Assembly (NCBI RefSeq): GCF_963506605.1
Contig: NC_083281.1
Coordinates: 56,730,001 to 56,794,000, forward strand
Length of the DNA stretch: 64,000 bases
From: Zootoca vivipara
Lineage: Eukaryota
Direction of reading: 5' to 3'
Below are positions 39,301 to 42,587 of this stretch, in pieces. Each line of letters starts with the position of its first letter. Positions within the stretch are counted from its first letter, which is position 1. The position numbers were made by a program, and so were the translations under genes. The notes under the pieces were generated by a model. It was not told the DNA's origin and ran no database searches. It saw nothing but the letters and a program-made list of their open reading frames with translations.

Positions 39301-42300
39301 TATATTATTTTATATTTCATGGGTGGGGTTGGCTCTCTCTGCTGTATTTCATCTTCCTTTTGGATCTGCCAATTTTTGTTGTTGTTATTGCTATTATTAT
39401 TATTATTATTATTATTATTATTATTATTATTATTATTTGGTGTATCTGCAACGCAGCATTAATTAAAAAGCTACATCCCTCACACAAAATCTCTTCAGAA
39501 TGCTTTTGCTCTGGTATTAAGGCCAAGAGACCAAGTACCACAAAGCCAAAGTGTGTGTGCATTATGGCATTAATGCAAACTACACGGTGCTATTTTGTTC
39601 TTCCCTCCAGCCAGCTGGGAGCAACAACCCATGAATCACACCTTATCCAGAAGTCATGGGTTGTCTCTTGCAAACAAACCACAATTGGAAAACCAAATAC
39701 AATTCTTGGCTTCACATTGTGGTTTGTTTAGATTTATTTAGATCAAGAGCACAAATTCAGACACTACGCTAGCACACACTTTTTATACTCCCAACTGAAC
39801 AAAGGAAGGAGTGAAATGTGAGCTCTCAAACTGTGTACACATTATGGTGTAGATTCAAACCTCAGTTTACTGATACATGTGAATACAGCCCAACACACAC
39901 TAGATCCTTTTCTACATTTCATTAAATGGAAAGAAGGTCATCTTGTATGCTCTTTCAATTCAAGGAACACCAAACTTTAAAAGCATATATAGCCAAAAGA
40001 GGCACCCCTAGTCCAACATCCCACTTTCAGAGGAGCCAATCAGATTTTTTTTTAAAAAAACACACTAATAACTAGGGATACGATGAAAGTGAAGAAGTAG
40101 GAGTAACACAGGCACCCCCAAACTTCGGCCCTCCAGATGTTTTGGACTACAATTCCCCTCATCCCTGACCACTGGTCCTATTAGCTAGGGATCATGGGAG
40201 TTGCAAGCCCAAACATCTGGAGGGCCGCAGTCTGGGGATGCCTGGAGTAACATATAGCACTATCTATGCACACAATGCTTACCTCCAAAAAGCCCAATTC
40301 ATCTAGGAAGCTTCGAAGGTATGTTATCATTTTTGCTCGGACTATGAATTTTTGCCTTACAAAGTCATTAAGAATTAAATCCAGGTATCTCTGCCGAAAT
40401 CTGGTTTCCTGCAAACAATGGCTAGATTTAGTGCATAAAACATACCAAAGGAAAACCAAAGTAGACTGGATAACCTCAGGTGTTATCAAGTGAGCTACTG
40501 AATAGCAGCTCCAAGAAAGATACCTTGTCTTTCAGCCCAAAATGAAGATGAGGTAGCATGTGAAGGCATGGAGCTAGGAGGGTGATTTGATACGGAATGA
40601 TGCTCAGTTCCCCTTTCTTTGTCTTGCCAGGATTCCCTTGGACCCCAATAATGTCCCCACGACGGAGCTTGTTGTTAATGTGCATATATTCTTCTTCAGA
40701 TTTGTAGTTTCTGGGGGTGGGGAGGATTAAAAATTTTTACTAAAACAACTCTTTTTGGCAAGCATTTCCCCAACCCCAGTTAGTCATATGGTTAACTTAG
40801 GTCCATTAATATCAATGGGTATATATACAAATTAAAGTTAGTTGGATATAACGCATTGTAGGGGATTTCTAGAATGTTTAAAGTGAGCCAGAAAGGAAGT
40901 TCCCTTGGGACAATATCCCGTAGAACAATTATGGAGGCCCAATGACATCATACTTTCATTTTCAGTTCCTTTCTGCCCCACCCCACCACTGGGACTCACA
41001 GAAGGCAGTAACTGATAAAAGCAGTTAAATGCTGTTTACCTGGAGTTTGCCATAACTTGCAACTTAACTCCCTCCCCACGAAGATCATAAAATATCAACT
41101 TTCCTCCAGAGGCTCGTTTGGCATGAATCCGGCCTAAATGACAAAAGTGACAAAAGAAAAATGCCTCAGATGCCATCAGTTACAATAAGAAGCCTGGAAA
41201 ACACATACGAGTTCTGGATGGCAGCACATAACATACAACCTTTCACTGAGACCTTACCAAAGGTCAATTGCACAGAATTTGTAGCAACTGAAGGACAAAA
41301 GCCACCTTGCTTACTTCAAATGCCACCCTATTTCTTCAACTCCATGAAACTTATTGCAGCTTCACTGTTCCCGTAAGAGAAGCAATCAGTGACATTCCTT
41401 CTCTTGCTTAGAAACTACCTACACAGCACTGCAATAAGTCTTCACTGTAAAAAAAAATGTGGGGAATGTGACAATCACTTTCATTCCCAGAATCCCAATA
41501 TGAGCCTTTACCTGCTAGTCTCACTGTAACATCAGTAAGATGATCCCCTGCCTGTAGGTGGTTGTACTTTTCTATAAAGTCTGACAGTGAGATATCCACA
41601 TGAAACTTGTGTGGAAAGGGATCTTCAGAAGTGCCTCTCAGTTGCTGGATGGCCTGACTGCGGATCTTGTAGTATTGCTATCGGTACAAAGGAGACAAAG
41701 ATGTTTGACAATACTGTACACAAATTAGTACACGGCATTCGGTCCCAGAAACCTGTTTAACCTAAGACAAGGAGCACCTCGCGGTAAGCATCAGTATTCC
41801 AGTGATAGATCTGGAAGGAGCAAATAAAAATGTGGAGGAAGGAAAGGCTGCCTTTCTCCACCCTGCTTGAAGTTTTTGCCAACAAGAGAAGCTCTCAGCC
41901 AGATCCTTGAGAGGATCCCTTTGGAAATAACATAGGTGCATTTGCACCAGGCCACCCAAGCAGTGCCTTAACCGTGGGCGCAGATAAGGGAGCCAAATCT
42001 GGCAGAAGCTTCGGCGTTTTTGCCCAATAGCCAGCTGCGCAAAGACCCAAGCCAGAACCACTCACAGATTCCCAGCCCACAACGGCTCCCTCTCCGTCAA
42101 GCCACCCACTTAGTCTCCCCCCCCCCACGCCCGGCTTGGACAGCCTCGGCGAAGGCGGCTTCTCACGTTGGGGTCGAGGTTTTCCTCGTCCTCAGTCGCG
42201 CAGGCGGCGGGCTTTGGCGGCAGTTTCTCTCCCTGCTCCTTCTGCTTCGCCTGCTTCTCAGCCACTTTCTTCTCGGCCTTCAGGCGCCGCTTCAGCTCGC

Positions 42301-42587
42301 TAAAAGGGAACCGAGAGTCAGCGGCGCTTCCCTTCCCAGTGGCCCTTTCCCGCAACTAACACCCCACCCAGCGGGCCAGACACCGACCTCGCCTGCCCAA
42401 GGGCCTGACTGCTCCCGCAGAAGCTCCGCAGCGGCCAGGCCGGGCGGAGACCCAGCAGCAGCAGCCGCGCTGCCGCCGCCACGCCGAGCATAACAGAGGC
42501 CGCGGCGGCCGGCTCCGGCACTCACTTCTTGCTGAGGCGGGGCTCGGCCTCCCCGTCCAGAGGGCTTGTCGTGGCGGGCGCCGCCAT
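33315..42587 (-). CDS. KARS1: Lysyl-tRNA synthetase, cytosolic isoform, 584 aa, 14 coding exons
   Basis: Exons (-): 42526-42587, 42167-42299, 41512-41677, 41040-41133, 40524-40710, 40283-40408, 38731-38850, 37862-38024, 37583-37756, 37102-37187, 36520-36605, 35658-35784, 33783-33926, 33315-33401 = 1755 nt. Motifs [38 protein letters not shown] and [10 protein letters not shown]. Confidence 0.97.
34757..34936. mobile_element. hAT (Charlie-like) MITE
   Basis: TIRs CA(T/G)GGGTCAGCAAAC. Degenerate 8-bp TSD tcttaaga/tctcaata. Confidence 0.75.
35880..36217 (+). mobile_element. Sauria SINE, near full length
   Basis: tRNA-like head and ccctttaccttt tail. 12-bp TSD TACAGACTAATT (35868-35879 and 36218-36229). 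Confidence 0.92.
39086..39139 (+). mobile_element. Ultra-short BovB 3' tail insertion
   Basis: tggggtcacgaagagtcggacacgactaaacgactaaa(caa)n. TSD AAGGTAAGCA at 39076-39085 and 39140-39149. Confidence 0.9.
39376..39437. repeat. (GTT)n/(ATT)n microsatellite
   Basis: Direct reading; it explains the poly-L/I/Y ORFs. Confidence 0.95.
40109..40244. mobile_element. 136-bp palindromic hAT MITE
   Basis: TIRs CAGGCA(C/T)CCC. Extended internal inverted repeat (ggccctccagatgttt / aaacatctggagggcc). Perfect 8-bp TSD GAGTAACA. Confidence 0.92.
42388..42491 (-). CDS. KARS1: KARS1 mitochondrial-isoform first coding segment (presequence); predicted isoform 598 aa
   Basis: [34 protein letters not shown] is Arg/Leu/Ala/Ser-rich with no acidic residues. 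The phase-2 donor AG|GTCGGT joins the 42299 acceptor to give ...S-ELKRR, as in human mitochondrial LysRS. Confidence 0.8.

What the first reader, a model, noticed from the sequence alone, without database searches (positions are those of the whole stretch)
42300..42587. KARS1 cytosolic/mitochondrial switch compressed into 226 nt: alternative 5' splice sites plus a built-in uORF instead of a cassette exon
Seen: cytosolic exon 1 (42587-42526) splices via AA|GTGAGT to 42299. Inside that 226-nt intron, an ATG at 42491, only 34 nt after the donor, opens a typical presequence. The only phase-compatible donor (AG|GTCGGT at 42388/42387, 88-nt intron) joins it in frame to S-ELKRR. A gap of 34 nt is too short for an intron, so the leader cannot be a separately spliced exon. 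If donor 1 is skipped, the cytosolic frame reads AAG-AAG-TGA: the stop is inside the donor itself. That makes a 21-codon uORF ending 30 nt before the mitochondrial ATG. Established: human KARS1 makes its two isoforms by inclusion or skipping of a separate exon 2. Inference: here one donor choice (strong GTGAGT versus weak GTCGGT) plus reinitiation or leaky scanning, or a second TSS, sets enzyme partitioning. This implies intron loss or gain between lineages.
Basis: partly seen in the sequence, partly recalled or inferred. Interest (0 to 1): 0.7.

Follow-up and report, generated by a model that had tools for sequence, protein, structure and literature searches.

The report
Lizard KARS1 two-donor mitochondrial switch
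In this lizard, the gene for the enzyme that loads lysine onto tRNA makes its cytosolic form and its likely mitochondrial form by choosing between two splice sites 138 bases apart at the end of one first exon, instead of including or skipping a separate exon as humans do; the resulting messages look like the human ones, so this is a tidy rewiring of a known switch.

Summary
The window holds a lacertid KARS1 (matches Zootoca vivipara RefSeq X2 letter for letter). Stranded RNA-seq shows both junctions: 42526^42299 (4, 22, 26 reads) and 42388^42299 (0, 1, 14). The 88-nt intron has zero depth, and 11 of 52 reads at donor 1 run unspliced from exon 1 into the leader. So this is an alternative 5' splice site on one extended first exon, not a cassette exon, and a start site inside the gap cannot be the only source. 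Novelty is lower than claimed. RefSeq already models the leader isoform (XP_060131981.1). The exon-1 uORF is already described for human KARS1. A stop inside a phase-2 GTRA donor is automatic (3 of 3 other than donor 2 in this gene; also invertebrate loci). New here: read-through proteins imply a donor-1-to-leader gap of 122 nt in chicken, 86 in owl, 34 here and 23 in another squamate-like record, which points to intron 1 shrinking until it lost its acceptor, rather than clean intron loss or gain. Import into mitochondria and uORF translation are untested.

The parts
42526..42587 (-). KARS1 exon 1 coding part, cytosolic N-terminus (20 codons + 2 nt); ATG in strong context (A at -3, G at +4)
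   Evidence: RefSeq X2 P0001 maps letter for letter in 14 exons
42520..42525 (-). donor 1 (AA|GTGAGT), phase 2; used for the cytosolic mRNA
   Evidence: junction 42299^42526 in 4, 22 and 26 reads of X21, X22, X23 and one contig of X1
42522..42587 (-). 21-codon uORF that exists when donor 1 is skipped; TGA lies in donor 1; same frame as the second ATG
   Evidence: sequence; its translation is not tested
42492..42525 (-). 34-nt gap between donor 1 and the leader ATG; its only AG dinucleotides end 5 and 13 nt after the donor, so no intron fits; kept in the leader mRNA
   Evidence: flat depth 4 (X22) and 7-9 (X23) across it
42388..42491 (-). leader coding segment, 34 codons + 2 nt; predicted mitochondrial presequence (3 Arg, no Asp/Glu, net +3)
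   Evidence: identical to the N-terminus of RefSeq XP_060131981.1 (P0008); read depth up to 18.6 in X23
42300..42387 (-). 88-nt intron from donor 2 (AG|GTCGGT) to the shared acceptor; six G-runs and a CTGAC branch-like motif 22 nt from the end
   Evidence: junction 42299^42388 in 0, 1 and 14 reads; zero depth in 42305-42379 in all four runs; motifs
42167..42299 (-). first shared exon (ELKRR...DPN), 133 nt
33315..41677 (-). remaining 12 coding exons of KARS1 (anticodon-binding OB fold and class II catalytic domain)
   Evidence: Pfam PF01336 and PF00152; closest solved structure lysine--tRNA ligase 6chd
42967..43398 (+). head-to-head neighbour beginning with a BRCT domain (TERF2IP/RAP1 by recalled synteny); its ATG is 379 nt from the cytosolic KARS1 ATG
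   Evidence: the gene name is recalled

Best explanation
KARS1 here has one first exon with two alternative splice donors feeding one acceptor: donor 1 gives the cytosolic enzyme, and donor 2, 138 nt further on, keeps a leader that likely targets the enzyme to mitochondria. Shown: both junctions, read-through of donor 1 from exon 1 into the leader, and about one read in five skipping donor 1. Inferred: on the donor-2 mRNA ribosomes start at the strong cytosolic ATG, stop after 21 codons, and reach the leader ATG 30 nt later by reinitiation or leaky scanning, which would keep mitochondrial output below the mRNA share. Inferred: the layout arose from the human-type cassette when intron 1 shrank inside the CpG island and lost its acceptor while keeping its ancient donor.
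For: Junction reads 4/22/26 and 0/1/14 with 9 starts for the latter in X23, zero depth in the 88-nt intron. At donor 1, 4 of 23 reads (X22) and 7 of 29 (X23) are unspliced; all 4 in X22 and 3 of 7 in X23 run at least 30 nt into exon 1; no pile-up of read starts. Bin arithmetic puts at least 2 of the 4 X22 reads over the cytosolic ATG if they are 150 nt long, 1 if 146 nt. A contig from a second species (X5, RNA guessed) spans 42471-42549 unspliced. One LysRS locus found in the genome, so the mitochondrial enzyme has no other evident source. Arg-rich, acid-poor leaders join at the same S-ELKRR phase in squamate, bird, turtle, crocodilian, amphibian, fish and mammal models. Donor 1 position is old: 7 of 19 invertebrate-like loci have AA|GTAAGT there. 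Read-through proteins give gaps of 122 nt (chicken RefSeq X1 and unnamed contig ORF P0343), 86 nt (Strix aluco X1) and 23 nt (P0006).
Against: Read numbers are small and about 6 in 100 of each run was read; X21 shows 0 of 4 leader junctions and X2 laid nothing. Reach to the ATG at 42587 is only inferred and vanishes if the reads are 140 nt or shorter; 2 of 9 leader-type reads in X23 begin near 42498 and 4 more within 15 nt of the donor, which random fragmentation or a downstream start would both give. No targeting predictor or import assay was run; this leader has the lowest net charge (+3) of the 12 leader-type N-termini scored. No non-lacertid vertebrate DNA was aligned; the gaps come from back-reading proteins. 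Axolotl (38 nt) and mudskipper (27 nt) models show similarly short spacing and I could not tell spliced from contiguous.
Confidence: 0.78

Rival explanations
1. Donor-2 transcripts start at a second transcription start inside exon 1, downstream of the cytosolic ATG, so the leader ATG is the first AUG and there is no uORF on them.
For: In X23, 6 of 9 leader-type reads begin between 42498 and about 42540; the cytosolic ATG has a strong context that would hinder scanning past it; CpG-island promoters have dispersed starts (general knowledge).
Against: 7 leader-type reads extend to 42555 or beyond and no start pile-up is listed; at least 1-2 X22 reads should cover 42587 if near full length; the human mitochondrial mRNA includes exon 1 (PMC7600831, passage).
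Confidence: 0.15
2. The compact layout is the ancestral vertebrate state and the human cassette exon arose by intron gain or expansion between donor 1 and the leader.
For: Mudskipper model P0145 continues after exon 1 with Val (GTN, could be a donor) and 27 nt to the leader Met; axolotl P0087 has 38 nt; birds are also compact (86-122 nt).
Against: In axolotl the residues after exon 1 imply GTGAYA or GCGAYA, lacking the +5 G of a good donor, so that model is more likely spliced (inference). Bird gaps are intron-sized, and end in P/S-E-x-x-M, which could hide a CAG acceptor 8 nt before the ATG (back-translation only). Intron 2 is also short only in squamates (78-96 nt against 178 nt or more in chicken), suggesting local shrinkage in this lineage.
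Confidence: 0.2
3. The donor-2 form is splicing noise or a decay substrate and makes little protein.
For: The uORF stop lies 134 nt before the donor-2 junction, a position that can trigger nonsense-mediated decay (general knowledge); X22 has only 1 donor-2 read against 22.
Against: Leader-type N-termini with the same join are modelled across vertebrates; only one LysRS locus was found and mitochondria need the enzyme; 21 in 100 reads skip donor 1.
Confidence: 0.04

Closest known systems
Human KARS1 (NM_005548 cytosolic, NM_001130089 mitochondrial; Tolkunova et al. 2000 as summarised in PMC7600831, PMC8251883, PMC4394549)
   Same: One gene, two N-termini joined in phase 2 to the ELKRR exon; the mitochondrial mRNA carries exon 1, a stop that ends the exon-1 frame, and a downstream ATG opening the presequence.
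   Different: Human uses a separate exon 2 that is included or skipped; here there is no acceptor between exon 1 and the leader, so the choice is between two donors, and all of it fits in 226 nt.
Zebrafish hars (PMC5608375)
   Same: First ATG in exon 1 is soon stopped in the longer mRNA and a second ATG adds a mitochondrial leader.
   Different: Different synthetase; a 309-nt cassette exon 2, not alternative donors.
Human GARS1 and C. elegans tars-1 (PMC10196762)
   Same: One synthetase gene serves cytosol and mitochondria through two start codons.
   Different: One mRNA with the leader upstream and in frame, no splice choice. The invertebrate-like LysRS loci look like this type.
RefSeq models XP_060131981.1 (X1) and XP_034973528.1 (X2), Zootoca vivipara
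   Same: The two proteins predicted here, including the leader and the S-ELKRR join.
   Different: Automatic models without localisation or comment on the layout.

Membership tests
KARS1 (class II lysyl-tRNA synthetase) | OB-fold anticodon domain plus class II (D, K, N) catalytic domain, orthology to vertebrate LysRS | tested here: met
   Pfam PF01336 and PF00152 above cut-off; best PDB hit lysine--tRNA ligase 6chd, 1117 bits; P0001 maps exactly to the window
Human-type KARS1 dual targeting by cassette exon 2 | Single LysRS gene in the genome | tested here: met
   1 match from 1 candidate with a 54-aa catalytic exon; a distant paralogue could be missed
Human-type KARS1 dual targeting by cassette exon 2 | Two mRNAs with different N-termini spliced to the same ELKRR exon | tested here: met
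   both junctions in RNA-seq
Human-type KARS1 dual targeting by cassette exon 2 | Leader on a separate exon with its own acceptor | tested here: not met
   34-nt gap, AG only at +5 and +13; reads cross it unspliced, no joint listed
Human-type KARS1 dual targeting by cassette exon 2 | Exon-1 frame stopped upstream of the leader ATG on the longer mRNA (uORF) | tested here: inconclusive
   stop is in the sequence and 30 nt or more of exon 1 are on leader reads; inclusion of the ATG depends on read length
Human-type KARS1 dual targeting by cassette exon 2 | Leader imports the enzyme into mitochondria | not testable with these tools
   composition only: 3 Arg, no acids, hydrophobic moment 0.58 against 0.34 for the cytosolic end
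Alternative 5' splice-site event | Two donors on one contiguous exon, one shared acceptor, both used | tested here: met
Alternative transcription start | Leader transcripts begin downstream of the cytosolic ATG | tested here: inconclusive
   not inside the gap alone (11 reads cross donor 1); a start between 42556 and 42587 is not excluded

The most novel reading that the evidence does not exclude
KARS1 records a cassette exon turning into an alternative 5' splice site by stepwise collapse of its upstream intron: spliced in mammals, intron-sized (86-122 nt) and retained in bird gene models, unspliceable (23-34 nt) in squamates, with the same protein output kept throughout and with tissue-dependent donor choice setting how much LysRS goes to mitochondria.
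Probability: 0.45. Interest if true: 0.45.

Novelty: new variant of a known kind. Interest (0 to 1): 0.3.

Why it matters
It is a clean natural case of one alternative-splicing type changing into another while an essential output (cytosolic versus mitochondrial LysRS) is preserved, with birds as a possible intermediate. The whole switch fits in about 300 nt, so it makes a small minigene for testing donor competition and reinitiation after a short uORF. It does not change what is known about KARS1 function.

Tried and rejected
Rejected: 'stop built into the donor' as a special feature; the three phase-2 GTRA donors of this gene all give TGA or TAA and so do 7 invertebrate-like loci. Rejected: intron retention or pre-mRNA as the source of gap reads; the 88-nt intron has zero depth. 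Rejected: donors 42381, 42360 and GC 42396; in phase but no junction reads. Junction ratios differ between X22 and X23 (1:22 against 14:26, Fisher p 0.006) but the position-matched share at donor 1 does not (4 of 23 against 7 of 29, p 0.74), so regulation is not claimed. The run search listed no indexed holder on record as RNA (no RNA holder listed); raw-read runs were laid instead. The metagenome scan gave no vertebrate loci (19 loci). The profile search (88 hits) gave intron-like read-throughs before ELKRR but none spanning exon 1 to the leader apart from P0006. The search with the chicken read-through found 1 hit. Folding 42640-42388 gave a GC-rich fold without a control and was not used. 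The Atlas gave no result. Tolkunova et al. 2000 is not held, so human exon 2 length and intron sizes were not checked. Earlier scan findings: nothing relevant.

Full report
Observation. The first shared exon is 100% identical to Zootoca vivipara RefSeq lysine--tRNA ligase X2, which maps letter for letter onto 14 GT-AG exons from 42587 to 33315. Its cluster mate X1, XP_060131981.1, 598 aa, begins with exactly the proposed leader followed by S-ELKRR, so the second junction is already an automatic gene model. Pfam and PDB confirm a class II LysRS. A search of the own genome with one catalytic exon gave 1 match from 1 candidate, and the 5' DNA is single-copy by DNA search. Two details were wrong: other in-phase GT donors exist at 42381 and 42360, and a crude U1-pairing count scores both real donors alike.

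Expression. Three stranded RNA-seq runs of one study (about 6 in 100 of each read) and one contig set were laid on 42130-42879. All first mates lay on +, which in most stranded libraries means minus-strand RNA. The 226-nt junction had 4, 22 and 26 reads; the 88-nt junction 0, 1 and 14 (9 starts). Depth in 42305-42379 was zero everywhere, so gap and leader reads are not pre-mRNA. A second lay on 42466-42555 split reads at donor 1: X22 had 19 spliced and 4 unspliced, all 4 spanning the whole stretch; X23 had 22 spliced, 7 unspliced and 2 that begin in the gap, with 3 of the 7 reaching 42555. X2 laid nothing; X5, a second species with RNA status guessed, gave one contig across the donor. Pooled, 11 of 52 reads skip donor 1. 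Binned depths imply that at least 2 of the 4 X22 reads cover the cytosolic ATG if 150 nt long, 1 if 146 nt, and none need to if 140 nt. So the alternative-donor reading is shown; the uORF being on the same mRNA is likely, not proven.

Mechanism. Shown: one acceptor, two donors 138 nt apart. Inferred: the leader is a presequence (3 Arg, no acidic residue, amphipathic), weaker in charge than its homologues. Inferred: on donor-2 mRNA the strong cytosolic ATG opens a 21-codon uORF that stops 30 nt before the weaker leader ATG; both ATGs are in one frame here, so the stop is what prevents an extended, probably mistargeted protein. The stop needs no special origin: a phase-2 GTRA donor always yields TRA as the next codon, as at 42526, 41040 and 36520. 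The 88-nt intron has six G-runs and a CTGAC motif; that G-runs help short introns is recalled.

Comparison. Human KARS1 uses a cassette exon 2 whose inclusion stops the exon-1 frame and offers a downstream ATG (PMC7600831, PMC4394549, PMC8251883, PMC5889485: passages); zebrafish hars does the same (PMC5608375, passages); GARS1 and worm tars-1 use two starts on one mRNA (PMC10196762, passages). Drosophila LysRS is listed as dual with two products (PMC4826098, passages). PMC3022353 and PMC5873386 (passages) added nothing. The primary paper was not held. So the mRNA logic, uORF included, is known; only the genomic route differs.

Evolution. No non-lacertid vertebrate DNA could be fetched, so I used proteins that read through the region in another frame. 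A scan of all stored proteins found the frame-shifted exon-1 end in 7; 5 of them (P0006, P0087, P0145, P0148, P0381) plus P0343 give a distance to the leader Met; P0094 and P0157 were left out because their models splice into the leader. Distances: chicken 122 nt (RefSeq X1, and P0343, which runs on into intron 2 and so reads as genomic), Strix aluco 86 nt, unnamed squamate-like P0006 23 nt, against 34 nt here. In these the residues after exon 1 are Ser-Glu, matching A|GTGAG. Axolotl (38 nt) and mudskipper (27 nt) models are ambiguous between spliced and contiguous. Intron 2 is 78-96 nt in three squamate read-throughs and 178 nt or more in chicken. Donor 2 reads R-S-V in lizard, P0006 and chicken and R-W-V in snakes, fitting AG|GTnnGT. 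Among 19 invertebrate-like loci, 7 genomic ones have a plain 81-91 nt intron at donor 1 with no leader in it, and many have a leader upstream of the cytosolic Met instead. The simplest reading is an ancient donor 1, a leader exon inserted behind it, and shrinkage of the intervening intron in sauropsids until squamates lost its acceptor. This only sees species whose other frame happens to be open, and rests on few records.

Novelty. Ten full-text searches (listings only, except the papers named above) showed no description of KARS1 5' layout in reptiles or birds; subscription papers, including the primary human paper and work on the KARS/RAP1 promoter, are outside the library, and no supplements were read. 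Verdict: a real, expressed variant of a known switch, already present in automatic annotation, modestly interesting as a case of splicing-type change. Interest 0.3.

Noticed in passing
L002-L005, L007-L012, L014-L020 (metagenome contigs): Many invertebrate-like LysRS loci have an Arg/Ser/Leu-rich leader upstream of and in frame with the cytosolic Met, a third way to dual-target LysRS (two in-frame starts); 7 genomic ones keep the same phase-2 intron at SK-N, while L013 lacks it.
   Followed up: partly
window 42967-43398 (+): BRCT-domain gene head to head with KARS1, 379 nt between ATGs; TERF2IP/RAP1 by recalled synteny. A few X21 and X23 reads at 42750-42879 lie on the KARS1 strand further upstream.
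   Followed up: partly
window 42463, 42470, 42472, 42517: All laid reads of X22 and/or X23 differ from the window at these leader and gap positions; probably alleles of other individuals. Three lie in leader codons.
   Followed up: no
P0157 (chicken), P0094 (Albula): Gene models that splice from exon 1 or the gap into the middle of the leader, suggesting cryptic sites or annotation errors at this locus.
   Followed up: no
P0056, P0058, P0068 (storks), P0017 (king cobra): Gene models fuse KARS1 with neighbours (ADAT1-type deaminase domain PF02137; sulfotransferase-like N-terminus), likely annotation artefacts where GC-rich exon 1 is missing.
   Followed up: no
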